Shown piece after piece: positions 4,024 to 63,953 of a stretch of 64,000 nt of DNA. This DNA is from a bacterium (GTDB lineage Bacteria; JAMCPX01; DATBWZ01). Positions within the stretch are counted from its first letter, which is position 1. Every line of letters starts with the position of its first letter. The stretch lies in NCBI GenBank assembly GCA_036514535.1, contig DATBWZ010000039.1:5919-69918 (forward strand), in the 5' to 3' direction. The notes under the pieces were generated by a model, which was not told the DNA's origin, did no database searches, and saw nothing but the letters and a program-made list of their open reading frames with translations. Both the position numbers and the translations under genes were made by a program.

Positions 4024-4038
4024 CCTAATGACTCATTT

Positions 4039-5763: not shown

Positions 5764-6522
5764 ATGGTTTCACTGCAAAAAATTTGCTTCTTGATTCCTA
5801 TCGTTGCGGTTGTTTTTTCATGTCAACATCATGAAAGTTATGTCCGGCAGCCACAACTTGACAGAGAAATTATTAATGACCTGATTACAAGAGAAGCGGA
5901 AATTTCAAGTATAAAAACGCGCGCTTGGATAAAGATTCATTCACCCGAGGGCGAGTTCAGTTTTGACTGCATCTACGCTGCTGAATCTCCCTCAATGTTT
6001 CGCATAGAACTCCTGAAGCCGTTCGGCATGGTTGCCGTTTCCGTCGCAACAGACGGCGACAGGCTTTACATTATAAATTACAATGATAATTTATGTTTTG
6101 ATGGTGCGCTGAACAGGAAAAACATAAAGGCATTTCTGCCCTTTGAAGTGGACCCTCATATACTTACCTCCATCATTTTAACAAAAATTCCATATCTTGA
6201 TTCTTCCGCAATAAACGGGGTAAATAAAACTGACAGTGAAATTGAATTTCTCTATGCTCCGAATATAACGGATACAGGCATAATTAGAATTTCAGATATT
6301 CCTGAGCGCTCAATATCCGGCGACCTTGATGGAATGACTTTTGAGTACAAAAAGTTCTATAATGCAAGGGGGACGATATATCCAACGGTTGTCAATTTAA
6401 AACATGGAAGTGTAAGCATAGAGATGAAACTGGAGGACACCGTGTTTAATTCTGAAGAGAAAGATGCTGAGTTTTTTTTGCGGATACCGGGAAACTGTAA
6501 AAAAATACCTGAAAGGAATTGA
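5764..6522 (+). CDS. LolB-like / DUF4292-like outer-membrane lipoprotein (252 aa).
   Basis: Lipobox VVFSCQ. Size and position (directly after TPR genes, stop-start junction TGAATG) match the LolB-fold lipoprotein family that often follows TPR genes. Family assignment is from memory, not alignment. Confidence 0.45.
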   Translation: MVSLQKICFLIPIVAVVFSCQHHESYVRQPQLDREIINDLITREAEISSIKTRAWIKIHSPEGEFSFDCIYAAESPSMFRIELLKPFGMVAVSVATDGDRLYIINYNDNLCFDGALNRKNIKAFLPFEVDPHILTSIILTKIPYLDSSAINGVNKTDSEIEFLYAPNITDTGIIRISDIPERSISGDLDGMTFEYKKFYNARGTIYPTVVNLKHGSVSIEMKLEDTVFNSEEKDAEFFLRIPGNCKKIPERN

Positions 6523-10017: not shown

Positions 10018-11646
10018 GTGTTGCATTGGGATAAAATGAAAAAATTCTTCAATTATGCCGCTCTGATGTTTATAATTGTATTTTTTGGCTGTGAAAGCGG
10101 AACGCAAAACAGAATAAACTCGCTTTCCAAAGAAGGGAAAGAATCTCTTTCAACCGGAGATTACGAAGGGGCAAAGGGAAAATTCAGCGAGATATTAAGC
10201 CTTGATGGAAGTCATTGCGACGGACTTTACGGGATGCTTCTTGGAGAAATGATGGCTTTTATTGATTCCGTTTATGGTTACATTGATTTGACGAATTCAA
10301 TAACCGGGAATCAAAGCGCTCAGTCCGGTTTGAGATTACAGCAGGCTGGCGTGGTTGATGGAGTTATCTACGAAGTTGCCAATATTTTTCTTGACTACTT
10401 TAAAAATCTGGATTTTTATGCCGTTAGGGTTAAGGAAATGAAATGTTCTTTCAGCCTCTCAATGCTGCCAATATCACGCTCAGGTATTGAATTCCGAGGC
10501 GAATGGGATGAACACGAGGCGCATTTTATAAGTATGCTGTCAAATGGGGGGAAGGCAATTGTTAACTTCTTAATTGCCCATAATCTGGATGTGAATACAG
10601 TGCCTATTCGTGATGCCCGTGATTCGGGTTTGCTTAAATTTAATCCCGAGGATGTTGTTGTTTTTTTGCGTTCAGTTGGGTTTATTGTTGAGACAAGTCC
10701 GGAACTATTGAAATGGAGCACAAATGCTGTGCGCAGGGCAAGCTTTGATGCTGTTCCTCAGTACTGCGCCGCAATGTTTCATGAGGCGAAGGAATTGCTG
10801 AATATTTTTACAGAACAGGACAAAACCCCGTACGATGATATAATTGCCTGGGTTGATGTTGATAATGATGGCATTCCTTCATCAGGGGATAAATTAATCC
10901 TTAATGTTTATAAAATGGATACTGGCGAGCCAGCCGTTGATCTCAGCGGGTACACCGGCATTTTTCTGCCTATACTCGCTTCATCCATGGACGATTGGAG
11001 GGCGAAAATTACAAGAGTTGAGGATGCTTTTGCTTTCAGGCTTTCGTCCGGTGAAAGGATTTCCTTTGATGAGATTCTGCCATGGTTTGGAAGCATGCTG
11101 GGAATATCCAATACCCTTGAATTTGATATTATTGCGCTCTTTAAGGGTATGGATTACACAGGGGAAAATGTAAGACCCCTGAGGGACCTTCTACCTTATC
11201 TTTTTGATCATGACGGTAATTCCAGTACCTACCAGATTTTTCTTGTAGAAGGAGAAATATTCGGAACACCGTTACAAGGAAAAGAAGGATACTTGTTTAA
11301 TGGGGATGCCAAACACTTCGGTATTGGAACCGATTGGAATCCATCGGATACCAGTATAGACCATGCTTCAGGGGAAATAAAGCCGGACTGTGCTGTTCCC
11401 AATCAGACTGGGGTGCAGATAGGCATTGACAGTTACGGCAATCCGGTTTATCTGCCACTTATCTATGTGGGGTGGCCAGATCCATCATTTAACGGGGCAG
11501 TGTATACGAATGATGGAGGAACCTGCGCGGACTCTTCCCAGTTTAGCAAGACAACCGTATACAGCTTGAACAAGGAGTTAAACAGGCTGATTGCTGGATG
11601 GGGAAACTTTTTCTACGCTGTAGTTGCCGGCGGGGTATCATTCTGA
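10018..11646 (+). CDS. Large hypothetical lipoprotein (542 aa), function unknown.
   Basis: Signal peptide plus lipobox-like FFGCES. No motif I can assign. Sits where ABC ATPase genes would be expected. Confidence 0.6.
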   Translation: MLHWDKMKKFFNYAALMFIIVFFGCESGTQNRINSLSKEGKESLSTGDYEGAKGKFSEILSLDGSHCDGLYGMLLGEMMAFIDSVYGYIDLTNSITGNQSAQSGLRLQQAGVVDGVIYEVANIFLDYFKNLDFYAVRVKEMKCSFSLSMLPISRSGIEFRGEWDEHEAHFISMLSNGGKAIVNFLIAHNLDVNTVPIRDARDSGLLKFNPEDVVVFLRSVGFIVETSPELLKWSTNAVRRASFDAVPQYCAAMFHEAKELLNIFTEQDKTPYDDIIAWVDVDNDGIPSSGDKLILNVYKMDTGEPAVDLSGYTGIFLPILASSMDDWRAKITRVEDAFAFRLSSGERISFDEILPWFGSMLGISNTLEFDIIALFKGMDYTGENVRPLRDLLPYLFDHDGNSSTYQIFLVEGEIFGTPLQGKEGYLFNGDAKHFGIGTDWNPSDTSIDHASGEIKPDCAVPNQTGVQIGIDSYGNPVYLPLIYVGWPDPSFNGAVYTNDGGTCADSSQFSKTTVYSLNKELNRLIAGWGNFFYAVVAGGVSF

Positions 11647-13711: not shown

Positions 13712-15976
13712 TCAAAATCTGACTGAAATAAATCCGCCTAACCGTGTTCCGATCTCTCTTGCACGGTAGGTTGTTGAACTGTTACCATCTATCACTTGCG
13801 ATGCTTCAAGATGTTTTCTGAACAGGAGGTTGGATCCGAAAAGTCCAACTTCCATTCGCCCGCCAAGCAGGGAATATCCGAGTTTCATATTCAGGTTTAC
13901 ATATGGCTTTACCGATTTAACAGAGATCCCATCTGAAATATCAGTTCCTGGCAGGAATACCCGCTCTTTGAAGCCCGTTGAATAATTTGCCGAAAGAGAA
14001 CCCTCAATTTTATCATACATCTGGATAATGAATCCGGCATTTGTTATGTGATTTGGATTGGAATCATCAGGATTAATGTGGGTAATATCCGGATCTTTAG
14101 ACTTGTCAATAGCCCTCACATGAGCATAATTAAGAAAAAAACTTAAGTCTTTTATCAGAATGACCCTTAGATCTGCCTCTCCGCCGAACGAATCAAAATC
14201 TTCCGGAAAATTTTTATAACCGTTCTCCGCTGGAACAAATTCTATAAAATTTTTCAGGCGATTATAAAAAGTTGCAATCATAAGATTTATCCTTCTGAAA
14301 AATACAACTGAATAATTTACCTGGTAGGCTGTTATTTCTTCGTTCAAAAGTCCTACAGGTGCGTTTCTGATTTCAACGAAAGAGGGCTGACGGTATCCAT
14401 TTCTTAAAGAAAATCCTATAGAACTTTCTTTTGCCGGAATAAAAGATATTCCCAAAACATAGGAGTTTGCCTGGGGTGTGAGGGAGTTCCAGTCAAATCT
14501 GTAGGAAAGGGTCAGCTTTAAGTTCTCAAAGGGTGAAATTTCGTTTGAAATAAACACCCCGATACCCCTCTGTGTTATTTTGTGTCCCGGAGTATCATCC
14601 GGGGAATATACATCTATGCTGATATTTCCACCCACCATTATCCTGTTCAATAGCCCGGCGTAAAGCAACTTTTGCGAATATAAATTAAAATCGTCAGAAC
14701 TTCCGCTGTAAGGTGGAACAGTTGTTCTGAGTTCTGGCGTATCAGAAAAAACAACATCCACCGGCTTGGTTACCATAATATTGTTTTTAACCAAATAACC
14801 TTCTATGAGTAAATTTCTGTAAGACAATGTTGCCTGGCCGTAAGATGATTCAAACTGAGAATAGAAGTCCCCCTGATTTGTAAAAAAGGGCTTTCTGTTT
14901 TTTAAATATCCAGTGCTTAAAGAAAATAATTTACCACTGTCAGGGCTGTACTCAAAATAAGGGTTCACCTGAATAGAGCTGAAGAATTGCTTATCAGGAT
15001 CAGCCCATGAATTTAATTGCCCGTACTCTGTTGAAATCTTGGCTCCGATATTGCCTGTTTTTATCCCGCTGCCAGCATACATAAAAAGACTATTCCCATT
15101 GCCAGCGCGCAGGCTGGTTCTGAAAGTTTCCATTTCGTAAGGCTTTTTTGTCCTTATATCAATTACGCCCGCATAGGCGCCTGAGCCGTACAGGGATGAG
15201 AGGGGCCCGTTCACGATCTCTATTTTTTTTATATCGTTAAGCGATGTTTGCATTGCTGACCACCACGGGACTCCTAATGATTTTATTTCTGCGTTTCTTC
15301 CGTCCACCATTACTTTGATCTGATTGTTCCGGTTTGCCATGCCCCTTGCTCCCAATTCATACAGCCCTGAATCAATATTGCGTGCATCAATGCCAGGGGC
15401 AAATCTGAGAATATCCGGAATAAAATAAACTCCCATGGCATGAATTTCTTGATCATTTAATACTGTAACGGGTAATAACACCTCTTCTGGAGGTAGATCG
15501 TATCTGGAAGGGGTATGGATGGTATCTTCCGGAATAACAGGAGACTGTTGAGTAACGGGATTCAATTTCTGGTCCTGCTGTTTACTATCAAAAACTTGTA
15601 CATACTGGGCTTTTTTGTGATCCCTGAAAATTAAATGCGGGAGTCCGGTTCTGTCAATAAGAAATATAAAATATTTAAGTCCGGGGTAAATTACCTCCCC
15701 TGCGGGTATAGTTCCTTCAAATATAGCGCCATTTCTCTTCATAAGAATTATCTTGAAATCATTTTCCCCGGAGATGCAATAGCCAATGCTTGCATGCAGG
15801 ACATTCTCCGGTTCATATATTATTGCCTGGATTTTGAGCGGCTGATGCGCTATTGCCTGGACAGGAGGTGTGTGAATTACATTGAATGATATTATTTCTG
15901 CTGAGTAGGATATAAGTTCTAAAGTCATGATATTTGATAGCATAAAAATAAAAGATAGTTTCCTGAATATACGCAT
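13712..15976 (-). CDS. TonB-dependent outer-membrane receptor with an extra ~170-aa N-terminal domain.
   Basis: Signal peptide. Plug-domain motif IEIVNGPLSSLYGSGAYAGVIDIRTKK. Long beta-rich barrel region. C-terminal aromatic residue (…SVRF). Confidence 0.75.
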   Translation of the reverse strand: MRIFRKLSFIFMLSNIMTLELISYSAEIISFNVIHTPPVQAIAHQPLKIQAIIYEPENVLHASIGYCISGENDFKIILMKRNGAIFEGTIPAGEVIYPGLKYFIFLIDRTGLPHLIFRDHKKAQYVQVFDSKQQDQKLNPVTQQSPVIPEDTIHTPSRYDLPPEEVLLPVTVLNDQEIHAMGVYFIPDILRFAPGIDARNIDSGLYELGARGMANRNNQIKVMVDGRNAEIKSLGVPWWSAMQTSLNDIKKIEIVNGPLSSLYGSGAYAGVIDIRTKKPYEMETFRTSLRAGNGNSLFMYAGSGIKTGNIGAKISTEYGQLNSWADPDKQFFSSIQVNPYFEYSPDSGKLFSLSTGYLKNRKPFFTNQGDFYSQFESSYGQATLSYRNLLIEGYLVKNNIMVTKPVDVVFSDTPELRTTVPPYSGSSDDFNLYSQKLLYAGLLNRIMVGGNISIDVYSPDDTPGHKITQRGIGVFISNEISPFENLKLTLSYRFDWNSLTPQANSYVLGISFIPAKESSIGFSLRNGYRQPSFVEIRNAPVGLLNEEITAYQVNYSVVFFRRINLMIATFYNRLKNFIEFVPAENGYKNFPEDFDSFGGEADLRVILIKDLSFFLNYAHVRAIDKSKDPDITHINPDDSNPNHITNAGFIIQMYDKIEGSLSANYSTGFKERVFLPGTDISDGISVKSVKPYVNLNMKLGYSLLGGRMEVGLFGSNLLFRKHLEASQVIDGNSSTTYRAREIGTRLGGFISVRF

Positions 15977-18701: not shown

Positions 18702-20057
18702 TCAGGATTCAATATCTATTTTTTCTACCCTTTCCGGAGGTGGAAAATTAAATTTTACAGTAAAGCCTGCATTAAATATATCTCCCCGCGCAGTAAATCC
18801 AGGGTATGCGGGATTATCTATTAGGTTCTCTGGTTTTGTCGTCTCTCTTTTTGTCATCAACTGATACTGGAAATGCATATCCAGTTCAATCATTTTCGGA
18901 ACATTCATGATTGCCAGTGCGTAGCCCATGCCTGTTGAAATTATATGTGTGTTGCTGTCAATTAGATTTGAAATCCCGGTCTGGGCAGGCACAGGGGACT
19001 GTCTGAAGATGTATCCTCCCCTCACTGCAAGTTTGTGATCAATCATTGTGTATTCCGCTCCTATTTTAGGAAGCAGGGTGTCACGAAGCCCTGGATCATT
19101 GCGTGTCAGCGGAGTCATTGCTTTTCCTAAGCCTTCATTGCCTAAAGTTACAGCTACCCATGGCGGTGTATAGGCTGACCATTGAACAAACCCGAGATCG
19201 GCTGCCATTGTCAGGGAGTCGTTCATAAAATATGAGAAGCCGATTGTAATCTGTTGAGGTGAATGCTGACCGCCCATATCAAGATTTATTGGGCCAGTGA
19301 GATCGTCGTTAAGTGTAGTTGAAACCTTTACCTTCTTTTCCCCGCGGTATGAAAGGCCAATGCGGTATTTTGCAGCATTATACAGTATTCCCAGATATGG
19401 CGAAATATTAAGGGGGAATTCTCCTGTAGCCTCAGCGTAAAAAGGTTCGGCTGTCATGTCAGTTTCCAGCATAAGTTTTAAATCGGCAAGCACGCTTACG
19501 CCAGCGCCTACACTAAGATATTTGTTTACCTGGTATCCAGCTCCTGCGAGAATAATAGTTGTGTAGGGCAGTTCTTCAAATAGCAGTGTTATTGGTTCGG
19601 ACTCCGGTTTAAATCTTTCTTTTATGAGAAGATGTCCCTTTGCTACATGAATAAGAACTCCAAAGGCAATATGTTTGCCAAATATAGGTCCCACCTTGTT
19701 TATACCGCCAATGCTGAATCCGTAGGGACTATCCATGTCGGATGCATCATCAAGTTTAAGCTGGGCGGCAAGGCTTTTCCCCTTGAATTCAAAATTTTCG
19801 TATGGATATAAATAGGAAAATTCAGTGGTTGTTCCATACGTAGTATTTACAATAGCCGCCGGGTTGTAATAAAGACCCGTTGGATCTGTTGCAAGTGTTG
19901 TATAGGCATTCCCCATTGCTGTTGATCTGGAATCAACGCCAAATATGTTATAGGAATTGGCGTATAACGACGATGCAGTGACTGCGAACAAGGTTAACGC
20001 TAAAAATGTTTTTATTTTTTTCATATCAATCCTCCTTCTAAATTTATTTAATTTCAA
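18702..20057 (-). CDS. FadL/TodX-family outer-membrane hydrophobic-compound channel (paralog 1).
   Basis: Signal peptide. N-terminal LYYNPAAI (NPA motif of the FadL family). Beta-barrel-like alternating hydrophobic pattern. About 450 aa. Confidence 0.7.
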   Translation of the reverse strand: MKLNKFRRRIDMKKIKTFLALTLFAVTASSLYANSYNIFGVDSRSTAMGNAYTTLATDPTGLYYNPAAIVNTTYGTTTEFSYLYPYENFEFKGKSLAAQLKLDDASDMDSPYGFSIGGINKVGPIFGKHIAFGVLIHVAKGHLLIKERFKPESEPITLLFEELPYTTIILAGAGYQVNKYLSVGAGVSVLADLKLMLETDMTAEPFYAEATGEFPLNISPYLGILYNAAKYRIGLSYRGEKKVKVSTTLNDDLTGPINLDMGGQHSPQQITIGFSYFMNDSLTMAADLGFVQWSAYTPPWVAVTLGNEGLGKAMTPLTRNDPGLRDTLLPKIGAEYTMIDHKLAVRGGYIFRQSPVPAQTGISNLIDSNTHIISTGMGYALAIMNVPKMIELDMHFQYQLMTKRETTKPENLIDNPAYPGFTARGDIFNAGFTVKFNFPPPERVEKIDIES

Positions 20058-21352
20058 AAATCCGCAGCAAACGCTACATTAAATTTTTCAATAATTGCCC
20101 TGTAGAATCCTGTTGAAGAATACTGGTTATTTGATACTGTAATGTGTCTTGAGTTTAAAGGTTGATAGTGGGTAAACCCGCCGCTGATTTTTAGGTTCTT
20201 TGATAATCTGTATTCTCCGGATATAAAGGCAAGGATCTTGTCAAATTCAAGGTTTAATGCCGAAATATACTCGGAAGGAATACCGCTCGGATCATATCCA
20301 AAGCCAAACCCGATCTTAGAAATTTTGTTCGGAGAGTACCTTAAGTCAAACTTCCAGTTTATCGTGTCTACAAATTTACTTTGCAGTTTGTAGGGATTGA
20401 ATTTAAGCAGGTTCAGCAGATTCTGCATGGTTGCGTCATCCGATATAAGATCTACGGTAATATTCTTGTTTACGGACCAGTCATACCATTGGGCAATAAA
20501 ATTTGATTCCCACTGCTGGCTTAATAAATATTTTGCGCCGAAATTTATCGCCTGCGGAAAGTTCTGGTGCGCAACAGCGTCCAGGTCTAATCCGTCACCC
20601 AGCACAGAGAGCAGGGGACTGTTTGCTTCTGGTCCCCTTGTTATGTATGCAGGCCCTTTGTAATCTGCCTTGAATGGGGCAAGGTAAGCTGCCCCAATTG
20701 TTAATCCACGGACAGGTTTCGCTGTTACCCCCAAGCTGAAAGAAAACGCATTTGCTTTAAGCCAATCCAGATGAGCCCGCATTTCAGTTGAAGGGTCTTC
20801 GTTATTCAACAGACCTATGCTCATTTTTGCATCCAGCAAGCCGAATATGTAATTAAGAGCGGCACCGACGGAGAGTTTCTGAGAAATCATGTAACTTACC
20901 GCGGGCCCAAAATTTGCCGTAAAAAGGAGCGCATTTGTTCCATTGAAACGTTGCGGCCCGTCCTTGTCCCATGCCGCCATCCTGCCCATGTGCGCGTATC
21001 CGGCAATCCCAAAACTTAAAGGAATATTTTTTACTGAATGTGTTAATCCAAAGTAGGGGGGAGGTATAAAACTTGAGGCGGATGTTTCATCATATTTATT
21101 TAATTCTTTCAGGTCTGAACCATACTCAATTCTCTCATAAGAAACATTTTGATAAACAGGCGGCAGATCAAGAAAAATATTTGTTCCCTTTGAGAAACTG
21201 ATGGCGGATGGATTCCAATACAGCGCTGCAGGATTTGGGTCTGTTGGTCCTGAAAAGTTGCCGCCGATATCCGGGACCAGATATCCGTTTGAATGTAGTT
21301 TTGTGTGCAGGGATATTAATAATAAAAACAATAAAAACAAGTACCGCCGCAT
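20054..21352 (-). CDS. FadL/TodX-family outer-membrane channel (paralog 2).
   Basis: ALYWNPSAISF motif. C-terminal aromatic residue (…AADF). Signal peptide begins at the internal Met (MRRYLFLLFLLL), so the start is placed at 21352 rather than the ORF-track 21406. Confidence 0.7.
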   Translation of the reverse strand: MRRYLFLLFLLLISLHTKLHSNGYLVPDIGGNFSGPTDPNPAALYWNPSAISFSKGTNIFLDLPPVYQNVSYERIEYGSDLKELNKYDETSASSFIPPPYFGLTHSVKNIPLSFGIAGYAHMGRMAAWDKDGPQRFNGTNALLFTANFGPAVSYMISQKLSVGAALNYIFGLLDAKMSIGLLNNEDPSTEMRAHLDWLKANAFSFSLGVTAKPVRGLTIGAAYLAPFKADYKGPAYITRGPEANSPLLSVLGDGLDLDAVAHQNFPQAINFGAKYLLSQQWESNFIAQWYDWSVNKNITVDLISDDATMQNLLNLLKFNPYKLQSKFVDTINWKFDLRYSPNKISKIGFGFGYDPSGIPSEYISALNLEFDKILAFISGEYRLSKNLKISGGFTHYQPLNSRHITVSNNQYSSTGFYRAIIEKFNVAFAADF

Positions 21353-21440
21353 TAACCCCTCCGGACAATTTTGTAATAAATTATAATAAAAAGGGGCAAT
21401 TGTCAACTGCTTTTTTTTTCAGGCTGGATTCCTGCTTTGC

Positions 21441-49693: not shown

Positions 49694-50278
49694 TTATGCA
49701 ATATTTGAATATTTTTTAATAAATGCATTTAATCTGGGTTCAATATCCCATTCTTTTGCCCATTTTTTAAGATACGTTAAATTGAGGTTTTTAAAATTAT
49801 ATTGAAAAACATTTTCTACATCCTGGATGTCAATCGGCCGGTTCGCTATTAGTTTATGAACAATCAAATCTTCGGGCGAGATAACCGGAACTTCAATATT
49901 AAAAATTTTCAGCCACACCTTTCTCTTTAAAGTCTCTTCTTGATATGGAATATGCGCCAGCATAAGATCTATCCTGATTATTATCCCGCGTCGTTTTTTA
50001 GTAACTTGTATAAGATCAGGAGGTTTTGAAGGGCCAAGAAACCTTATTTCAAATCCATTATCCTTCAGGTTGCGGACGATTTCTTCTAAGTCCTTTTCCG
50101 AAATAAAAACAACTAAATCAATATCATCGGTTGCCCTTGATCTTCCCCAGGCTCCAGCCGCCAGTCCTCCGAGAATAGCGTAGTCAATATTTCGTTTTTC
50201 AAAGATTGATTTGAGATGTTTTAAACTCTCTATAAAAAAGAGAGTAAAATCATCTGTTATTTTTTCTCCATCTTTCAT
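49694..50278 (-). CDS. Nucleotidyltransferase-fold protein (MNT/AbiEii/DUF2204-like), 194 aa. Possible toxin-antitoxin or antiphage component.
   Basis: Pol-beta-type NTase motif GGLAAGAWGRSRATDDIDLVVF (G-x-R/S...DxD). Convergent with rlmN. Not a recognisable housekeeping enzyme. Confidence 0.55.
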   Translation of the reverse strand: MKDGEKITDDFTLFFIESLKHLKSIFEKRNIDYAILGGLAAGAWGRSRATDDIDLVVFISEKDLEEIVRNLKDNGFEIRFLGPSKPPDLIQVTKKRRGIIIRIDLMLAHIPYQEETLKRKVWLKIFNIEVPVISPEDLIVHKLIANRPIDIQDVENVFQYNFKNLNLTYLKKWAKEWDIEPRLNAFIKKYSNIA

Positions 50279-55668: not shown

Positions 55669-57078
55669 ATGTCATTGGTAATAGGTATAAGTTTTGGAGA
55701 TAAAAAAATCGGCGCATGCCTTTTGGAAACATTCTTCAGAGGGTGGAAATTTTTGGATTTTCGCGAAAGCGAGATTAAAAATGCGGGATCCGCCGCAGAA
55801 ATTACTCAGATACTAAAAAAGATGTTTACTCCGGAGGAGGTCTCTGCCGGCAATTTTCTATGTTCTCTTCCAGGCATGGATGTGTTCTACCGGGCAATGA
55901 ATATTCAGTTCAGCGATCCGGTAAAGATTCAACAGGCTGTTGAGGTAGAGATGGATACTCTCCTGCCTGTCCCGCTTGAAGATATTGTTGTTACCTGGAC
56001 TAATATTGCAAAGAGAACGGTACAGGATAATGTATTAGCGTATGGAATAAAAAAAGAGAAGATTTTATATTTTCTTGATATTCTTCGTGCCGCAGGAATT
56101 GAACCAATAATTTTAGACTGGGATGCAGTTTCGCTTTTGAATTTACTTTCCAGGCTCCCTGATTCACCAGACGGAGGATTAACAGGCATCATTCATCTGG
56201 AAGATGACAGAACCATTCTGTGTTTTAAATCAGCGTCAGGTCCGGCGTTTGCGAGAACGCTCAGGCAGGGCGCTGATTTGCCTACGGAATTAAACAGAAC
56301 ATTGAGATCCAAAATAGACTCTGAAAAAAGAGAGATTCGCAAAATTTTTCTTTCAGGGCATGCAGAACGATTAAAGGTTGTATCCCGGCAATTAGAGCAG
56401 TTTTTTGAGACGACGATAATTGAGCTTATGAATTTTTCCGATTATATCCCCGAGTGTTCAGTATTGCGGCCGGACATTCAAAGCAAAGCCCTGCTCCCCC
56501 TTTCAATAGCCCTACGGCGCATCTTGAAGAAGGCGGTTGGCGGGAATTTCAGAAGGGGAGAGTTTGCTTATACTGCCTCACTTGAAGAAGTCAAGACCAG
56601 TCTTGCAGCTACAGGAATTATAGGATGCATTATACTTGCGCTTGGGATTGGAAACATTATATATAAATATGTTGACAGGAAAACCGTATATAAAAAAATA
56701 CAGTCGCAGCTTTCTGAAGTTTGTTCCGTATCTGTCAGCGGGTATGACCCCTATATGGACTGTGCAAAGGAATTGAAAAAGGCGTATATGGAAAAACTCC
56801 AGCGAAGATTCTCAAGGGTAAAGGCGGTGGATATTTTAAGAGAATTCAGTGTGCGCGTTTCCAATGCTCAGATAATTGATATATCAGAAGTATCAATGGA
56901 TGGAGAAAAGATCAAAATAAAGGGGACTGCGCCAGCTCTTGAGATAGTAGAAAAGATAAAAAACGATCTCTCAAAATCTGAACTATTTGGCTTGGTTGAG
57001 ATTATTGATTCAAAAAAGAGTATTGATGGGGCATCGTTTGGCTTCAGCCTTACAGTAACTCTGAAGCCAGCAGGATAA
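55669..57078 (+). CDS. GspL-like protein: PilM-type actin-like cytoplasmic domain, single TM, periplasmic PilN-like domain.
   Basis: PilM-like region QQAVEVEMDTLLPVPLEDIVVTW. TM helix TGIIGCIILALGIGNIIY near residue 330. 469 aa. Confidence 0.55.
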   Translation: MSLVIGISFGDKKIGACLLETFFRGWKFLDFRESEIKNAGSAAEITQILKKMFTPEEVSAGNFLCSLPGMDVFYRAMNIQFSDPVKIQQAVEVEMDTLLPVPLEDIVVTWTNIAKRTVQDNVLAYGIKKEKILYFLDILRAAGIEPIILDWDAVSLLNLLSRLPDSPDGGLTGIIHLEDDRTILCFKSASGPAFARTLRQGADLPTELNRTLRSKIDSEKREIRKIFLSGHAERLKVVSRQLEQFFETTIIELMNFSDYIPECSVLRPDIQSKALLPLSIALRRILKKAVGGNFRRGEFAYTASLEEVKTSLAATGIIGCIILALGIGNIIYKYVDRKTVYKKIQSQLSEVCSVSVSGYDPYMDCAKELKKAYMEKLQRRFSRVKAVDILREFSVRVSNAQIIDISEVSMDGEKIKIKGTAPALEIVEKIKNDLSKSELFGLVEIIDSKKSIDGASFGFSLTVTLKPAG

Positions 57079-57611
57079 TGAAGGAAAAGATCAGGCAATT
57101 CTACTTGTCGCGCACAAACCGGGAGAAAATGATTCTCCTTGCAGGAACTGCGTGCGTTTCATTGATAATCCTTTTCATGGTTGCTTCCCCGCTGATAAAC
57201 AGTTACAGAAAGATTGACAGGATGGTTTCCGACAAAAAAGAAGAACTCCTTCGCGTCCTGGAATTGAAAAAGGAGTATGGTGGAATTGATAGTATATCTG
57301 CAGGTACAAAATTTTTTGAAAAGGGTACCTCTCTGCTTGGTTTTCTGGAGGGGATCACATCAAAAATAGGGATGAGCGTCCAGTCTTTCAGACCAGGAGA
57401 GGGTGAAACTTACGGAAAATATAAAGAGATCAACGCAGAGATAAAGTTTGCCGGAATATCCCTTCAGGAAGTAACAGAATTACTGTATTTTCTTGAGTAC
57501 AACAATAATCATTACACTGTCTGGGTTAAAAAATTATATTTAAAAACAACTTTTAAGGATCCCAATAAACTTGATGTTACAATTAATCTTGGAGCATACC
57601 AATATTTATGA
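57078..57611 (+). CDS. GspM/PilO-like bitopic inner-membrane protein.
   Basis: Single N-terminal TM (MILLAGTACVSLIILFMVASPLI), then a ~140-aa periplasmic domain. Start abuts the previous gene. Confidence 0.5.
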   Translation: MKEKIRQFYLSRTNREKMILLAGTACVSLIILFMVASPLINSYRKIDRMVSDKKEELLRVLELKKEYGGIDSISAGTKFFEKGTSLLGFLEGITSKIGMSVQSFRPGEGETYGKYKEINAEIKFAGISLQEVTELLYFLEYNNNHYTVWVKKLYLKTTFKDPNKLDVTINLGAYQYL

Positions 57612-58567
57612 ATATTAAAAAGGTTATAAAAATAAATAAAGTAATAAATATATTTAAAGTCGCTTATAGTTTTTTTAAAGATAAATTTACCGGGGAAAAT
57701 AGCAAAAAAGTTTTGCCCAAAATTGCGTATGCCGGATGTTTTTTAATCAGTTTTGTTTTTTTTGTTATACTCACTTTTCCCTATGATTCCCTGAAGACTC
57801 GTATAATGTACGAATTCTCGGCACGGCAAATGGGAATTCTTTCTATATCCGGTCTTTCCTATGCATTCCCCTTTGGGTTAAAGTTCCTCGGAATGGAGTA
57901 CTATGGCACTGATAGCATGAAGGATGTTGAATTTCTTAAAGCCAATTATATAAAAGTAAGACAGTCTTTGTTCTCACTCTTTACAGGAAAAATTGATCTG
58001 TCATTTTCTTCCGCTCTTTATAGTGGAAAGAGCAATGGCAGAATACAGTTGAAAAAGGACGGAGGCCGGCTTTATATCAACACCAAAAATATTGAATTCG
58101 GGGAATATTCGCCATTGTCCCAGCTTTTCGGGCTAAAAGTAACCGGCAGATTAAATGCAATGTGTGATATTGAGGATCAGGGGTTTAATATATCAAAGAG
58201 CAACGGTGAAATAGATATAAATATTGAAAATTTTATTATGGAGGAATCTTCTTTTTTGAGTCTTTTCAGACTTCCGAAACTGACAATTCAGAGTATCTCA
58301 GGAAAAGCAAAGATTACCAATGGGCTGTTGAAGGTTGATACCATTACGCTTACCGGTGGTGACATAAACGGCACGGCAAATGGGGAGATTAATCTCAGAC
58401 ATCCGTTTAACAACAGTATCCTTGACCTTCAGGTGAGGTTTATGTTCAGCAGTGTTTATCAGGAAAAATTAAAAAGTATTCTGGACCCTTTAAACATAAA
58501 GCAGGACCCCGGCGGATTTTATGTAATGAACATAGGGGGAACCGCAGGACTGCCAAGGCTTAAGTAA
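57608..58567 (+). CDS. GspN-like membrane-anchored periplasmic protein.
   Basis: N-terminal TM (AGCFLISFVFFVILTF), beta-rich body. Size and operon position after L/M homologues. Confidence 0.4.
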   Translation: MNIKKVIKINKVINIFKVAYSFFKDKFTGENSKKVLPKIAYAGCFLISFVFFVILTFPYDSLKTRIMYEFSARQMGILSISGLSYAFPFGLKFLGMEYYGTDSMKDVEFLKANYIKVRQSLFSLFTGKIDLSFSSALYSGKSNGRIQLKKDGGRLYINTKNIEFGEYSPLSQLFGLKVTGRLNAMCDIEDQGFNISKSNGEIDINIENFIMEESSFLSLFRLPKLTIQSISGKAKITNGLLKVDTITLTGGDINGTANGEINLRHPFNNSILDLQVRFMFSSVYQEKLKSILDPLNIKQDPGGFYVMNIGGTAGLPRLK

Positions 58568-58573
58568 TCCGTA

Positions 58574-60868
58574 ATGAAAAGAATATTTTTTTTTGTGGGC
58601 ATGGGGATTTTTTTTGTTGTCTTCCGCACAACAGCAGAGGTCAGCGCAAGTAAATTGGACCGTGTTCTTAGATTGGGTCTTGAGAGGGAGCAACTGCATC
58701 GCCCGTCACCACTTATTAATTATGACAATGAGGGCAGGGTGAAGGTATTGATCCGGACAGACAGTCCTTTCGGGGTTAGGAAAATGGTTGAAGGGCTTGG
58801 CGGCAAAACAGGGGCTTTTTCAGGCGGTATTCTTACTGGCAGTGTGCCGGTTGACGCTCTCACAGAATTAGCCGGTTTTCCGGATGTTTTTAGCATATCC
58901 GCTTCAAGAAGGCTCAAACCGCTTCTTGACAAAAGCGTATCTGCCATCTCTGCCGATAGCGCACATTCGGGTTCTGGTATTGCCAGGGGGGTAACAGGAC
59001 GGGATGTAATAGTCGGCATAGTGGATACGGGGGTTGATTTTAAACACCGTGTTTTTAAAAATTCTGACGAAAGCACAAGATTTCTCTCTATATGGGATCA
59101 GAATATTTCTGGAACTGGACCATCTGATTTCGGGTACGGGACCGAATGCGATGTTAATTCTATAAACAAAGGATTATGCAACGAAAAGGATATGGATCCC
59201 GATTACAGCCACGGCACGCATGTTACGGGAATTGCGGCTGGTTCTGACGCAAAATACAACGGCGTTGCGCCCGGGGCAATGATTGTCGGAGTTAAGACTA
59301 TTTACGATGAGGCATCGGTAATTGACGGAGTTGACTATATATTTAATCTTGCCGGAAAATACAATAAACCCGCGGTTGTCAATCTGAGCCTCGGAGGGCA
59401 GTATGGTCCGCACGACGGGACAAGTCAGTTTGATACTGCACTGGAGGCTTTGCAGGGCAACGGGAAGATAATTGTTGCTGCTGCAGGGAACGATGGGTCC
59501 TATAAGGTGCACGTTGAGAGCAATGTAATCCCTTCAGCAGAATCCTGGGCTGTTTTTGATGTTTATCCGAATGAGACCGATGTATTGCTGGAGGTATGGT
59601 ATAATGCCCTGGACCTTATTAATTTTGCTGTTGCAGGATTAAAGGACAATCAGGTCTGCAAGACAGATTTTATTGCTCCTGGACAGAGCAATCAGTTCAC
59701 TATATCCTCCTGTTCCTCCACTAATTGCGGCAACGCAATAATAGATGCATCCGCAACCGTCAATCCCAATAACTCCAGGCAAGTGTATGTTCTTATATCC
59801 GCCCCATCAGCAACGCAGCCTCTTTCCAGGTGCAGGTGGGCTATTGGCGCACAGAGCAATTCTGCTGATGCAGATGGCGGAAGTTTTGATGGATGGATAA
59901 CCACAGCGAATGCGGAATTCGGTGCATCGGAGTTAATACCCGGATTGGGAACAACCGTCCCTGGTGATAGCAATAAAACCATATCCACTCCTGCTGACGC
60001 AAAGAATATTATTGCAATAGGGTCATTTGTAACGAAAAACGAGTGGACTGCTCAGGATGGCAATAAATATACTTGTAATGGATGTACACCCGGAGACATC
60101 TCGGCTTTCTCCTCAAGGGGACCTACAAGGGATGGAAGGCTAAATCCGGCTATTGCCGCGCCCGGAGAATGGGTTGCATCTTCAAAATCCTCAAATGTCT
60201 CGCTAATAGATTCAAAACTCCTGCTGCCGGATCAAGGGTTCTTTATGCTGGCAGGGACAAGTATGGCATCTCCGCATGCGGCGGGGGCTATAGCGCTGAT
60301 GCTTGATTGGAATCCTAATCTTGGACCGGCGGCGGTCAAAAATTATATAACAGCAAATGCAAAAAACGATTCCTTTACGGGATTAAATAGGGCAAGCAAT
60401 CCGGATAATAGATGGGGACACGGCAAACTGGATATCCTGAAGGCACTGCAATCAATAGCCCCGGCTGCGATAGATGCAACACCGCCGCAGATTTCTGATG
60501 TGGTGGTTAATGTATCATCGGATTCAACCGTTTCAGTGTCCTGGAAGACAGACGAATTGAGTGATAGTTCAATAAAGGCTTCTTTTGGAAACGGGGAAGA
60601 GATAGCCGCAGTAGAAATGAGTTTTGTTACAGACCATACTCTAATCTTCTCTGGTCTGGAGACAAGAAATCTCTTCAGATTGGATATTTCATCCAGGGAT
60701 CCGAGGGGAAATGCTGGTTCGGTAACAAACCTGCCTGTGTTTGTACCGGGAAAAGGATGCGGTTGCACTGCCTCCGGAGGATCCAATGACTCTTTTGCAC
60801 CCGTATTTTTATTGGGTCTTTTTTGGCTCATCTTCAGATTAAAATCAAGAAGAAGCATCAAGTTATAA
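58574..60868 (+). CDS. Secreted subtilisin-like serine peptidase (S8), with Fn3-like domain and a C-terminal Cys-containing motif + TM + basic tail (sorting-signal-like).
   Basis: Signal peptide. Catalytic triad contexts VGIVDTGVD (Asp), HGTHVTG (His), GTSMASPHAAG (Ser). C-terminus GKGCGCTASGGSNDSFAPVFLLGLFWLIFRLKSRRSIKL. Confidence 0.85.
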   Translation: MKRIFFFVGMGIFFVVFRTTAEVSASKLDRVLRLGLEREQLHRPSPLINYDNEGRVKVLIRTDSPFGVRKMVEGLGGKTGAFSGGILTGSVPVDALTELAGFPDVFSISASRRLKPLLDKSVSAISADSAHSGSGIARGVTGRDVIVGIVDTGVDFKHRVFKNSDESTRFLSIWDQNISGTGPSDFGYGTECDVNSINKGLCNEKDMDPDYSHGTHVTGIAAGSDAKYNGVAPGAMIVGVKTIYDEASVIDGVDYIFNLAGKYNKPAVVNLSLGGQYGPHDGTSQFDTALEALQGNGKIIVAAAGNDGSYKVHVESNVIPSAESWAVFDVYPNETDVLLEVWYNALDLINFAVAGLKDNQVCKTDFIAPGQSNQFTISSCSSTNCGNAIIDASATVNPNNSRQVYVLISAPSATQPLSRCRWAIGAQSNSADADGGSFDGWITTANAEFGASELIPGLGTTVPGDSNKTISTPADAKNIIAIGSFVTKNEWTAQDGNKYTCNGCTPGDISAFSSRGPTRDGRLNPAIAAPGEWVASSKSSNVSLIDSKLLLPDQGFFMLAGTSMASPHAAGAIALMLDWNPNLGPAAVKNYITANAKNDSFTGLNRASNPDNRWGHGKLDILKALQSIAPAAIDATPPQISDVVVNVSSDSTVSVSWKTDELSDSSIKASFGNGEEIAAVEMSFVTDHTLIFSGLETRNLFRLDISSRDPRGNAGSVTNLPVFVPGKGCGCTASGGSNDSFAPVFLLGLFWLIFRLKSRRSIKL

Positions 60869-62150: not shown

Positions 62151-63953
62151 ATGAAATATGAATTTAAGAACCTGGGGCAGATGTTCTTTTCCCGCATGTC
62201 AAGATATACAGATAATCCTGCATTGCGCTATAAAAAAGACGGGCAGTGGGTTGATGTCACATGGAAAGAGGCGGGAGACAGCGTAAAAGCAATAGCCTCC
62301 GCCCTGCTGGCGATTGGGGTAAAAAGGGGAGACAAGATTTCAATCCAGTCTCAGTCGAGGTTAGAATGGGTGCTTTGTGACATAGGTGCGTTATCCATAG
62401 GGGCAATCACAGTTCCCATTTATCCATCTAACACGGCAGAACAGAGCGAATACATTATAAACGATTCCGAAGCAAAGGTTCTTATTGTTGAAAACCTTAT
62501 GCAATTGGATAAGATAAAGCAGATAAGACAAAAGATTCCCAATGTTATAAAAATAATCGTTATTAAGGAATTGACCAAGTCAGAAGATAAAACCATTAGC
62601 AGTCTTGATGAATTAATTAATCTTGGCAAGAGCGAACTTAAAAAGAACGACGAACAAATTAAAAAAATACTGGAAGAAATAAGCATAGAGGATGTTGCTA
62701 CCCTTGTATATACATCCGGTACCACCGGTTCGCCAAAGGGAGTTATCCAGACACACAAAAATCATATTGCTATGTCAACCAACCTTTATAAGGTGTATAG
62801 CCACAACCCGGGAGATATCAATCTTTTATTCCTGCCGCTTGCACATTCATTTGCAAGGGGAATAGAGTTTTTTGGAATATACTCTGGGACAGGTATTATG
62901 GCATTTGCCGAAAGCGTTGAGAAGATTGCTCAGAATCTTGTGGAGGTAAAGCCTCAGGTTATGGCAAGCGTTCCCAGAATATTTGAGAAGGTTTATCAGG
63001 CTGTGCTTTCCGGAGCGCAGGCTTCACCTGTTAAGAAAAAGATTTTTGATTGGGCGCTTGAAGTGGGAAAGCAGGTGAGCCGGCTGATCCAGAAAAAACA
63101 ACCTGTTCCGTTAGGTTTGAGAATAAAACGGTCAATTGCACACAAACTTGTTTTCTCTAAGCTGCACGCAAAACTCGGTGGCAGAATAAGATTCTTTATA
63201 TCCGGGGGTGCACCGCTTTCAAGGGATATAGCAGAATTTTTCCACGCTGCTGGGATTCTAATCCTTGAGGGGTATGGCTTAACAGAAACAGTCCCTGCCA
63301 CGCACATTAACAGGATTGACGGATACAAATTCGGAACAGTTGGACAGTTAATCCCAGGAGTTGAAGTGAAAATTGCGCCGGATGGCGAGATAATTGTCCG
63401 CGGCGACAACATCGCTACAAAGGGGTACTTCAAGAAACCGGAAGCAACAGCCGAATCCTTCACAGCTGATGGTTGGTTTAAGACCGGAGATATCGGGGAA
63501 ATAGATTCAGAAGGCTTCCTGAAAATAACGGACAGGAAGAAGGATATGATTAAGACTGCCGGCGGGAAATTTGTTGCGCCACAAAATATAGAAAATATCC
63601 TGAAGACGGACCCGTTTGTGAGCCAGGCAGTGGTTATAGGTGATCAGCGGCCATACTGTGTTGTCCTGATTGCGGTGAATAAAGAAGAGGCGGAGAAATT
63701 TGCTAAAGGGAACGGAATCCAATACAAAGATTATTCGGATCTTATAAAAAATCCGCAAATCAGGGAAAGGGTCAAACATACTATTGATGCAGTAAATTCA
63801 AAACTTGCAAGTTTTGAATCATTAAAGAAATTTGAGCTGCTTCCTCAGGATCTGACACAGGAAGGAGGAGAACTTACGCCTACACTTAAAGTAAAACGAA
63901 AGGTTATCATGCAGAAATACAATGAACTGGTAGATTCTATGTATAAAAATTAA
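62151..63953 (+). CDS. Long-chain fatty-acid--CoA ligase (AMP-binding family).
   Basis: AMP-binding motif YTSGTTGSPKGV. ...GYGLTET... Lys near the C-terminus. 600 aa. Confidence 0.9.
   Translation: MKYEFKNLGQMFFSRMSRYTDNPALRYKKDGQWVDVTWKEAGDSVKAIASALLAIGVKRGDKISIQSQSRLEWVLCDIGALSIGAITVPIYPSNTAEQSEYIINDSEAKVLIVENLMQLDKIKQIRQKIPNVIKIIVIKELTKSEDKTISSLDELINLGKSELKKNDEQIKKILEEISIEDVATLVYTSGTTGSPKGVIQTHKNHIAMSTNLYKVYSHNPGDINLLFLPLAHSFARGIEFFGIYSGTGIMAFAESVEKIAQNLVEVKPQVMASVPRIFEKVYQAVLSGAQASPVKKKIFDWALEVGKQVSRLIQKKQPVPLGLRIKRSIAHKLVFSKLHAKLGGRIRFFISGGAPLSRDIAEFFHAAGILILEGYGLTETVPATHINRIDGYKFGTVGQLIPGVEVKIAPDGEIIVRGDNIATKGYFKKPEATAESFTADGWFKTGDIGEIDSEGFLKITDRKKDMIKTAGGKFVAPQNIENILKTDPFVSQAVVIGDQRPYCVVLIAVNKEEAEKFAKGNGIQYKDYSDLIKNPQIRERVKHTIDAVNSKLASFESLKKFELLPQDLTQEGGELTPTLKVKRKVIMQKYNELVDSMYKN

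What the first reader, a model, noticed from the sequence alone, without database searches (positions are those of the whole stretch)
60700..60868. S8 subtilase ends in a Cys-Gly-Cys motif + TM helix + Arg/Lys tail, a candidate C-terminal protein-sorting signal
The last ~40 residues (…VPGKGCGCTASGGSNDSFAPVFLLGLFWLIFRLKSRRSIKL) have the tripartite shape of known C-terminal sorting signals: a short signature motif, a hydrophobic helix and a basic cluster. Examples are PEP-CTERM/exosortase, GlyGly-CTERM/rhombosortase and the Cys-containing MYXO-CTERM processed by a CPBP-type protease. A secreted protease does not need a C-terminal TM anchor. The Cys pair just before the helix suggests cleavage and lipid or surface attachment. 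No such signal is expected in a Desulfobacterota/Nitrospirota-like genome. If this is a dedicated sorting system, its processing enzyme and its other substrates are unknown from this window.
Basis: partly seen in the sequence, partly recalled or inferred. Interest (0 to 1): 0.6.

Follow-up and report, generated by a model that had tools for sequence, protein, structure and literature searches.

The report
MYXO-CTERM-like sorting tail on T2SS-linked subtilase
A secreted subtilisin-type protease ends in a conserved Gly-Cys-Gly-Cys motif, a membrane helix and a basic tail; this is the already described MYXO-CTERM kind of surface-sorting signal, found here in an unclassified low-GC lineage where the gene always sits at the end of a type II secretion operon.

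Summary
ORF 58574-60868 (+), 764 aa, is NCBI HEY4715972.1, "S8 family serine peptidase [bacterium]". It ends in GCGC (aa 728-731), a 9-aa linker, a 14-aa hydrophobic stretch and RLKSRRSIKL. It is not a new kind of signal. The only sorting-signal models that match are the MYXO-CTERM ones: TIGR03901.2 scores 24.7 bits on the tail alone and 17.6 bits on the whole protein (cut-off 20). The literature calls GCGC the generic MYXO-CTERM motif. In eight orthologs of about 50% identity, GCGC is invariant while the linker, helix and basic tail drift. AlphaFold puts the motif in a disordered linker between an Fn3-like domain and a terminal helix. The gene lies 6 nt after gspL-gspM-gspN, and gspN precedes it in every lineage contig inspected. 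In relatives gspC-J lie a few kb downstream. This fits the experimentally shown T2SS dependence of MYXO-CTERM proteins. Not shown: no second tailed protein and no CPBP/myxosortase gene in the window or in about 200 kb of lineage DNA. Ortholog tails score below the HMM cut-off, and the phylum is unresolved (nearest named MutL relatives are Syntrophales, 36-40% identity). Verdict: probable new member of a known kind, outside its published taxonomic range. Interest is moderate.

The parts
55669..57078 (+). gspL-like gene (PilM/GspL-type T2SS assembly-platform protein), first gene of the gspLMN-S8 run
   Evidence: TIGR01175 pilM, 34.3 bits, sub-threshold. PF11104 PilM_2 'faint' in precomputed hits. 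Orthologs at 39-41% identity sit at the same position in all lineage contigs. It starts 1 nt after accA ends.
57078..57611 (+). gspM
   Evidence: NF040576 GspM is weak in the window protein (17.2 bits). Orthologs carry PF04612 T2SSM. It overlaps the gspL stop.
57608..58567 (+). gspN (Leptospira-type GspN)
   Evidence: TIGR04411 T2SS_GspN_Lepto, 170.8 bits against a cut-off of 50. It overlaps gspM by 4 nt.
58574..60868 (+). S8 subtilase gene (764 aa), the carrier of the tail; starts 6 nt after the gspN stop codon
   Evidence: PF00082, 144.8 bits. Identical to HEY4715972.1. D151/H213/S563 are invariant. AF2 model has pLDDT 88.1. The nearest solved folds are CspB/CspC/CspA.
58574..58648 (+). N-terminal Sec-type signal peptide (aa 1-25, MKRIFFFVGMGIFFVVFRTTAEVSA)
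   Evidence: Read from the sequence: basic n-region, 14-aa hydrophobic core and a VSA-like c-region. The AF2 model has a helix at aa 2-26. No signal-peptide predictor was available.
60485..60742 (+). Fn3-like beta-sandwich domain (aa 638-723) preceding the tail
   Evidence: Strands E640-723 with pLDDT 80-93. Relative P0011 carries PF16656 and P0036 carries PF00041.
60755..60766 (+). Signature motif G-C-G-C (aa 728-731)
   Evidence: Invariant in 9 of 9 lineage sequences. It lies in a segment with pLDDT < 50 (aa 729-743). It aligns to the start of TIGR03901.2 (profile positions 3-31).
60794..60835 (+). Hydrophobic membrane segment FAPVFLLGLFWLIF (aa 741-754)
   Evidence: Best C-terminal hydropathy window in the whole 64 kb. 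AF2 helix at aa 743-760. Orthologs have uncharged stretches of 11-19 aa at the same place.
60836..60865 (+). Basic cytoplasmic tail RLKSRRSIKL (aa 755-764, net +5)
   Evidence: From the sequence. All orthologs have net +2 to +6 after the hydrophobic stretch.

Best explanation
The subtilase carries a functional Cys-type tripartite C-terminal sorting signal of the MYXO-CTERM kind.

Proposed path, by analogy with Myxococcus xanthus:
1. The N-terminal signal peptide takes the pro-enzyme through Sec.
2. The C-terminal helix holds it in the inner membrane, with the basic tail in the cytoplasm.
3. One or both Cys of the exposed GCGC motif are modified, probably lipidated.
4. An intramembrane CPBP-family protease (myxosortase-like) cuts off the helix.
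5. The T2SS carries the folded protease across the outer membrane. Its gspL-gspM-gspN genes are co-transcribed with the subtilase gene.
6. The protease stays anchored on the outer surface.

Shown here: the motif, its invariance, its position in a disordered linker, the HMM resemblance, the active-site residues and the conserved operon link to the T2SS.

Inferred: modification, cleavage, the identity of the enzyme and the final surface location.
For: - HMM match: TIGR03901.2 MYXO-CTERM is the only sorting-signal family hit, with 24.7 bits (E 2.3e-5) on the tail and 17.6 bits on the whole protein. The minor hits are also MYXO-CTERM models (NF045523, TIGR03382).
- Motif conservation: GCGC is invariant in 9 sequences of about 50% identity, while the linker, helix and tail have column identity 0.46-0.51.
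- Literature: GCGC is the generic MYXO-CTERM motif. The Cys residues are required for MrtX cleavage, and the T2SS is required for surface display (preprint 10.1101/2023.06.07.544157; PMC11980579).
- Structure: the motif lies in a disordered linker (pLDDT < 50) between a confident Fn3-like domain and a terminal helix.
- Operon: gspN (TIGR04411, 170.8 bits) ends 6 nt before the subtilase start, and gspL/M/N overlap or abut.
- Synteny: gspN precedes the subtilase gene in all lineage contigs inspected. In six relatives with downstream sequence, gspC, gspD and gspE start 4.6-5.4 kb after the subtilase gene, with gspF-J seen beyond them where the sequence extends.
- Same-sample T2SS core: a contig from the same ENA sample carries HK-RR-gspCDEFGHIJ.
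- Module swapping: more distant S8 relatives carry other export or sorting modules at the same position (T9SS Por_Secre_tail, FlgD_ig) or other Cys tails, including one from a Myxococcota MAG.
Against: - The whole-protein HMM score (17.6) is below the curated cut-off of 20. Ortholog tails score 0-16.5 bits.
- Five of the 9 lineage tails have Pro inside the hydrophobic segment. The published logo stresses the absence of Pro and charged residues there.
- No second protein with such a tail was found, and no CPBP-like ORF, in the window, in about 30 kb more from the same sample, or in about 200 kb of lineage DNA.
- Haft judged single MYXO-CTERM HMM hits outside Myxococcota to be false positives.
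- A myxosortase is not expected next to its substrates, so its absence nearby is weak evidence either way.
Confidence: 0.55

Rival explanations
1. The tail is a plain, uncleaved C-terminal stop-transfer anchor. The subtilase stays on the periplasmic face of the inner membrane and works beside the GspL/M/N assembly platform, for example processing T2SS cargo or components. GCGC would then be a structural or redox/metal motif, not a sorting signature.
For: Co-transcription with gspLMN fits an accessory role as well as a cargo role. No sorting enzyme and no further substrates were found. Ortholog tails do not reach the HMM cut-off.
Against: A simple anchor does not need an invariant GCGC placed 6-13 residues before the helix in a disordered linker. 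Homologous proteases in other phyla carry surface or extracellular export modules at the same position. A 14-aa hydrophobic stretch is short for a permanent anchor (sequence).
Confidence: 0.2
2. It is a real sorting signal, but it is handled by an enzyme other than a CPBP myxosortase. This could be a rhomboid-type, exosortase-type or still unknown protease, possibly specific to this one substrate.
For: No CPBP gene was seen anywhere near the substrate or the T2SS genes in nine lineage contigs. The tail departs from the canonical MYXO-CTERM in having Pro in the helix and a mixed Lys/Arg tail. V. cholerae VesB is a precedent for a T2SS-exported serine protease sorted by a rhomboid.
Against: No GlyGly-CTERM, PEP-CTERM, JDVT-CTERM or Synerg-CTERM model matches at E <= 10. 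A GG pair before the helix is not conserved among orthologs. All four described Cys-containing tripartite signals pair with CPBP enzymes.
Confidence: 0.15
3. It is a chance resemblance: an unremarkable hydrophobic C-terminus with no sorting role.
For: The HMM models a short, low-information region and is known to give single false positives outside Myxococcota.
Against: GCGC, an uncharged stretch and a positive cluster are kept in every ortholog at about 50% overall identity.
Confidence: 0.03

Closest known systems
MYXO-CTERM / myxosortase (MrtX, MrtC, MrtP) system of Myxococcota and Bradymonadales (NCBIfam TIGR03901.2; Haft preprint 10.1101/2023.06.07.544157; Guo, Haft and Wall 2025, PMC11980579)
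   Same: Tripartite C-terminal layout and the GCGC signature. An N-terminal signal peptide. A hydrolase as cargo (M. xanthus has MYXO-CTERM proteases such as MepA). A link to the T2SS. It is the only HMM family that matches.
   Different: The host is an unclassified 41% GC lineage whose nearest named MutL relatives are Syntrophales at 36-40% identity. Only one tailed protein is visible, against 3-73 per genome. Pro occurs in the helix. The whole-protein score is sub-threshold. The substrate gene is inside a T2SS operon. No myxosortase has been identified.
JDVT-CTERM / MrtJ dedicated system (NF033191)
   Same: A Cys-containing tripartite tail outside Myxococcota, apparently with one substrate per genome.
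   Different: JDVT has a single Cys, a near-invariant DP before a Leu-rich helix, and the enzyme gene next to the substrate. Here there are two Cys, no DP, no HMM hit and no adjacent CPBP gene.
GlyGly-CTERM / rhombosortase, e.g. the serine protease VesB of Vibrio cholerae
   Same: A secreted serine protease held on the cell surface through a C-terminal tripartite signal after T2SS export.
   Different: The signature there is GG, not Cys, and the enzyme is a rhomboid. The GlyGly-CTERM model does not match, and GG is not conserved in the orthologs.
Csp-type subtilases (CspB, CspC, CspA of clostridia)
   Same: They are the best structural matches for the protease body, with TM-score 0.77-0.81 normalised to the target, and the best NCBIfam partial hits. 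They share a prodomain and a beta-rich insert.
   Different: Csp proteins are spore germination proteases of Firmicutes with no C-terminal sorting tail. Sequence identity is only 18-24%.

Membership tests
MYXO-CTERM (TIGR03901.2) | Domain lies at the extreme C-terminus of a protein that has an N-terminal signal peptide | tested here: met
   The HMM match covers aa 728-760 of 764. A signal-peptide-like N-terminus is read from the sequence, and the AF2 model has a helix at aa 2-26.
MYXO-CTERM (TIGR03901.2) | [quoted passage not shown] | tested here: met
   GCGC at aa 728-731 is invariant in 9 of 9 lineage sequences. The motif is described.
MYXO-CTERM (TIGR03901.2) | Hydrophobic helix without charged or Pro residues, followed by an Arg-rich cluster | tested here: inconclusive
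   There are no charged residues in aa 741-754. Pro743 is present, and 5 of the 9 lineage tails have Pro in the segment. The tail RLKSRRSIKL is basic, but it mixes Lys and Arg.
MYXO-CTERM (TIGR03901.2) | HMM score at or above the curated cut-off (20 bits) | tested here: inconclusive
   Whole protein 17.6 bits (below); tail alone 24.7 bits (above). Ortholog tails score 0-16.5 bits. A Myxococcota relative's tail also scores only 17.2 bits.
MYXO-CTERM (TIGR03901.2) | Several to dozens of tailed proteins per genome (3-73 in curated genomes) | not testable with these tools
   One was found in the 64-kb window. No others were found in about 30 kb more from the same sample or in about 200 kb of lineage DNA. 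The whole genome is not available.
MYXO-CTERM (TIGR03901.2) | Cognate myxosortase (CPBP protease with the NF040914 core) in the same genome | not testable with these tools
   There is no CPBP-like ORF in the window or in any fetched locus. Myxosortase genes are not expected near their substrates.
MYXO-CTERM (TIGR03901.2) | Host belongs to Myxococcota or Bradymonadales (published range) | tested here: inconclusive
   NCBI labels the MAG only as 'bacterium'. All named MutL hits in the top 120 are Syntrophales, Smithella or 'Deltaproteobacteria' at 36-40% identity, with no Myxococcota among them. GspE is about equally distant (62-67%) from Deltaproteobacteria, Nitrospirota, Thermodesulfobacteriota and Myxococcales.
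MYXO-CTERM (TIGR03901.2) | Export to the cell surface depends on a T2SS | not testable with these tools
   Only genomic linkage could be tested. The gene follows gspLMN by 6 nt, and this arrangement is conserved in all lineage contigs. A T2SS core is present in the same sample.
JDVT-CTERM / MrtJ (NF033191) | Single Cys, DP motif before a Leu-rich helix, and an adjacent mrtJ gene | tested here: not met
   No NF033191 hit at E <= 10. There are two Cys and no DP. The neighbours are gspN and ttcA.
GlyGly-CTERM / rhombosortase | GG signature directly before the helix, and an HMM match | tested here: not met
   No HMM hit. The SGG in the window's linker is not conserved in the orthologs.
PEP-CTERM / exosortase | P-E-P signature before the helix, and an HMM match | tested here: not met
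   There is no PEP in the tail and no HMM hit.
Peptidase S8 (subtilase) | Pfam PF00082 match with the Asp-His-Ser triad | tested here: met
   144.8 bits against a cut-off of 21.8. D151, H213, S563 and N306 are invariant in 41 homologs.

The most novel reading that the evidence does not exclude
This lineage has a fifth, lineage-specific Cys-CTERM sorting system outside Myxococcota. A single subtilase substrate is hard-wired into the T2SS operon (gspL-gspM-gspN-substrate). Its processing enzyme is either a divergent Mrt-type CPBP protease or something new. That would make it a minimal one-cargo model for how Cys-tagged proteins are handed from the inner membrane to the T2SS.
Probability: 0.25. 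Interest if true: 0.6.

Novelty: new member of a known kind. Interest (0 to 1): 0.38.

Why it matters
The published range of MYXO-CTERM sorting is Myxococcota plus Bradymonadales. Single hits elsewhere have been dismissed as false positives. Here a single hit has independent support: motif invariance across a deep lineage, and a conserved operon link to the T2SS, the export route shown experimentally in M. xanthus.

If confirmed, this would:
- widen the taxonomic range of Cys-type C-terminal sorting;
- give genomic, non-myxobacterial evidence for the link between Cys-CTERM signals and the T2SS;
- offer a simple one-substrate system for finding the still unknown Cys-modifying enzyme.

For annotation, HEY4715972.1 and its orthologs are probably surface-anchored T2SS cargo rather than generic "S8 family serine peptidases".

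Tried and rejected
1. Exact look-up of the 764-aa product found nothing. The 755-aa form starting at Met10, and cluster members, did give contigs.
2. The genome-contig scan did not recover the source genome or the 50% orthologs. The best hits were 40% 'MAG: bacterium' relatives without T2SS neighbours.
3. The metagenome-contig scan added only two lineage contigs that were already known.
4. phmmer of the 49-aa tail against 1.84 billion representatives gave one hit. It is a translated tandem repeat with no tail, so the query is too short to find other substrates.
5. A regex plus TM-count screen for CPBP proteases (EExxxR, then HxxxN/D, with at least 3 TM) was empty over about 2.2 Mb of fetched loci.
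I went round this through GspE homologs. That showed the rest of the T2SS but no CPBP.
7. The promoter/terminator scan was not above shuffle expectation.
8. Cluster look-ups gave no taxon names beyond 'bacterium'.
9. The published J Bacteriol version of Haft's paper and Sah et al. 2020 are not held in the library, so I used the preprint and the 2025 mBio paper.
10. GlyGly-CTERM, PEP-CTERM and JDVT-CTERM were considered and rejected, because no HMM matches and their motifs are not conserved.
Full report
**Observation.** The window has one long ORF at 58574..60868 (+), 764 aa. It ends ...PVFVPGKGCGCTASGGSNDSFAPVFLLGLFWLIFRLKSRRSIKL.
- By residue: G-C-G-C is aa 728-731, then a 9-residue polar linker, then the uncharged stretch FAPVFLLGLFWLIF (aa 741-754), then RLKSRRSIKL (net +5).
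- Pfam finds only Peptidase_S8 (144.8 bits).
- D151, H213, S563 and N306 are invariant in an alignment of 41 homologs, so this should be an active protease.
- The N-terminus (MKRIFFFVGMGIFFVVFRTTAEVSA) looks like a Sec signal peptide. I read this from the sequence; no predictor was available.
- The protein is identical to NCBI HEY4715972.1, "MAG TPA: S8 family serine peptidase [bacterium]", on a 77.6-kb contig.
- A hydropathy and charge screen of all six frames found no other ORF in the window with such a C-terminus.
- The 172-aa ORF on the minus strand at 60343..60861 is antisense to this gene, and I treat it as an artefact.

**Which signal is it?** I scanned the whole protein and the isolated tail against NCBIfam, which holds the curated sorting-signal models.
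- The only hits were MYXO-CTERM models. TIGR03901.2 gave 17.6 bits (E 0.0037) on the whole protein and 24.7 bits (E 2.3e-5) on the tail alone, against a cut-off of 20. There were traces of NF045523 and TIGR03382, which also describe MYXO-CTERM ends.
- No PEP-CTERM, GlyGly-CTERM, JDVT-CTERM or Synerg-CTERM model appeared at E <= 10.
[quoted passage not shown] It also says the 34-residue model is weak, so lineage-specific forms often score low.
- Guo, Haft and Wall (2025) call GCGC the generic motif. They show that the CPBP protease MrtX cleaves the tag, that the Cys residues are needed, and that surface display uses the T2SS.

**Is the tail under selection?** A search of 5.8 billion proteins gave eight orthologs at 48-51% identity, from ENA, JGI, Logan and NCBI metagenomes.
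- All end in GCGC + linker + hydrophobic stretch + basic cluster.
- Column identity is 1.00 for GCGC and 0.75 for the 11 residues before it. It is 0.48 for the linker after it, 0.51 for the helix and 0.46 for the basic tail. The catalytic region is at 0.78.
- Linker length varies from 6 to 13 residues, the uncharged stretch from 11 to 19, and the net charge after it from +2 to +6.
- This is the pattern of a recognition motif followed by segments conserved only in character.
- An AlphaFold2 model (pLDDT 88.1, pTM 0.82) shows: signal helix 2-26; a prodomain-like unit 55-110; the S8 body with a beta-rich insert 140-626; an Fn3-like sandwich 640-723; a low-confidence segment 729-743 that holds most of GCGC; and a terminal helix 743-760. 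The motif is therefore exposed in a flexible linker, as expected for a processing site.
- Foldseek places the protease body nearest the clostridial CspB/CspC/CspA subtilases.

**Caveats on membership.**
- Ortholog tails score only 0-16.5 bits on TIGR03901.2.
- Five of the 9 lineage tails, including the window's, have a Pro in the hydrophobic segment. The published logo stresses the absence of Pro there.
- On the other hand, the tail of a related S8 protease from a Myxococcota MAG (P0030) also scores just 17.2 bits, and another Cys-tailed relative (P0023) scores 25.0. The cut-off is therefore not decisive in either direction.
- Haft states that single hits outside Myxococcota were all judged false positives. 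This hit has to be defended by other evidence.

**Genomic context gives that evidence.**
- The genes upstream are accA, then a PilM/GspL-like gene (55669-57078), then gspM (57078-57611), then gspN (57608-58567; TIGR04411, 170.8 bits against a cut-off of 50).
- The gaps are: 1 nt, an overlap, a 4-nt overlap, and 6 nt before the subtilase start. A 207-nt gap separates the subtilase from ttcA. Consensus promoter and terminator scans were no better than shuffles. The operon is inferred from this gene packing.
- In every lineage contig inspected, gspN sits directly upstream of the subtilase gene. This covers the window plus seven distinct relatives: P0002, P0003, P0005, P0006, P0007, P0008 and P0125. 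Wherever the contig reaches far enough upstream, the full order mutL-miaA-accA-gspL-gspM-gspN-S8 is seen.
- In the six relatives with downstream sequence, the subtilase gene is followed by one to three small genes (a reverse-strand VitK2_biosynth gene and a 113-134-aa ORF in all six, plus an extra 134-aa forward ORF in L089), a PAS histidine kinase, a sigma-54 response regulator and then gspC, gspD and gspE. GspF-G-H-I-J were seen beyond gspE only in L091, whose locus reaches that far.
- In the window organism that second half is not downstream. A 25.9-kb contig from the same ENA sample (ERZ27254867) carries HK-RR-gspCDEFGHIJ, with GspE 71-73% identical to the relatives. I infer, but did not prove, that it belongs to the same genome.
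- The subtilase is thus the only obviously exported protein encoded inside this T2SS locus. This matches the experimentally shown T2SS dependence of MYXO-CTERM proteins and of GlyGly-CTERM proteins such as the protease VesB.

**Family-level view.** More distant members of the same S8 subfamily (30-40% identity) carry different C-terminal modules at the same position.
- T9SS Por_Secre_tail (PF18962) appears in Ignavibacteria- and Bacteroidota-like sequences.
- FlgD_ig-like domains (PF13860) appear in Bipolaricaulota- and Eisenbacteria-like sequences.
- Other Cys + TM + basic tails appear in "Deltaproteobacteria" and Myxococcota MAGs: GCGC, GCTC, or a single Cys.
- The C-terminus of this protease family is therefore a slot for whichever surface-sorting module the host uses.

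**What could not be shown.**
- No CPBP/Abi protease, rhomboid or exosortase is present among the window's genes. Pfam scans covered essentially all long ORFs, and a motif screen was also empty.
- None was found in any fetched locus, about 2.2 Mb in total, including about 200 kb from the lineage.
- No second tailed protein was found there either.
- A phmmer search with the 49-aa tail against 1.84 billion representatives returned only a spurious tandem-repeat translation.
- Myxosortase genes are not expected to lie beside their substrates, so these negatives are weak. The whole genome is needed.

**Taxonomy.**
- NCBI labels the MAG "bacterium".
- MutL has about 50% identity to the same eight lineage members. 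It then drops to 36-40%. Every named hit in the top 120 is Syntrophales, Smithella or "Deltaproteobacteria", and none is Myxococcota.
- GspE is roughly equidistant (62-67%) from Deltaproteobacteria, Nitrospirota, Thermodesulfobacteriota and Myxococcales MAGs.
- The window is 41% GC and encodes LPS, Lpt, TonB and FadL functions, so the organism is a diderm.
- The lineage is deep and unclassified. It probably lies outside the published MYXO-CTERM range (Myxococcota plus Bradymonadales), but best-hit evidence cannot settle this.

**Mechanism and verdict.**
- Best explanation (confidence about 0.55 for the whole chain): Sec export; retention in the inner membrane by the C-terminal helix; modification of the GCGC cysteine(s); removal of the helix by a myxosortase-like CPBP protease; T2SS transfer to the outer surface.
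- Only the sequence features and the T2SS linkage are shown. Modification, cleavage, the enzyme and the final location are inferred from M. xanthus.
- Rivals are an uncleaved inner-membrane anchor for a T2SS-associated periplasmic protease (0.2), a real signal processed by a non-CPBP enzyme (0.15), and chance (0.03).
- I file the finding as a probable new member of a known kind of signal. Formal family membership is unresolved because the HMM cut-off, genome-wide substrate count, cognate enzyme and taxonomy could not be settled.
Interest is moderate.

Noticed in passing
window 55669-58567; L090 4666-13041; L091 6420-15061: The T2SS genes are split. gspL-M-N lie after mutL-miaA-accA. gspC-J lie behind a PAS histidine kinase and a sigma-54 response regulator. 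In relatives the two halves are about 5 kb apart with the subtilase between them. In the window organism the second half is on another contig. No gspK or prepilin peptidase gene was recognised.
   Followed up: partly
P0255: A GspE 100% identical to that of lineage contig L087 is deposited at NCBI as 'Halobacteria archaeon' on a 2,969-bp contig. This is almost certainly a mis-binned bacterial contig in an archaeal MAG. It also hints that this relative lives in a hypersaline habitat.
   Followed up: no
window 58574-60868 (aa 26-626): The protease body is a Csp-like subtilase. It has an N-terminal prodomain-like unit (aa 55-110), a low-confidence junction at aa 113-120 that could be an autoprocessing site, and a large beta-rich insert (aa ~313-450). 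The best PDB matches are CspB, CspC and CspA of clostridia.
   Followed up: partly
P0010-P0120: The same S8 subfamily carries interchangeable C-terminal modules in different phyla: T9SS Por_Secre_tail, FlgD_ig-like domains, or Cys + TM + basic tails. A sister clade (P0011/P0127 'Deltaproteobacteria bacterium', and L005) has a GCTC motif followed by GDL[FL]P before the helix.
   Followed up: partly
window 109-5763: Two adjacent very large TPR-repeat proteins (1304 aa and 574 aa) open the window. Their function is unknown.
   Followed up: no
window 5764-6522 and 10018-11646: Two ORFs (252 aa and 542 aa) flanking an Opp-type ABC transporter cluster have no Pfam match at E <= 0.001.
   Followed up: no
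window 18702-21406 (-): There are two tandem FadL/TodX-family outer-membrane transporter genes. A TonB-dependent receptor lies at 13712-15976 and a long-chain acyl-CoA ligase at 62151-63953.
   Followed up: no
window 49694-50278 (-): This gene encodes a DUF6036/DUF2204/AbiEii-like nucleotidyltransferase. In the near-identical contig L004 a called 68-aa gene lies next to it on the same strand, so the pair may be a toxin-antitoxin-like module set among housekeeping genes.
   Followed up: no
P0373: The only hit of the tail search in the 1.84-billion-protein library is a 337-aa 'protein' made of about five copies of a 60-70-aa unit. It is evidently a translated tandem DNA repeat, that is, a spurious gene call in the public collection.
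   Followed up: yes
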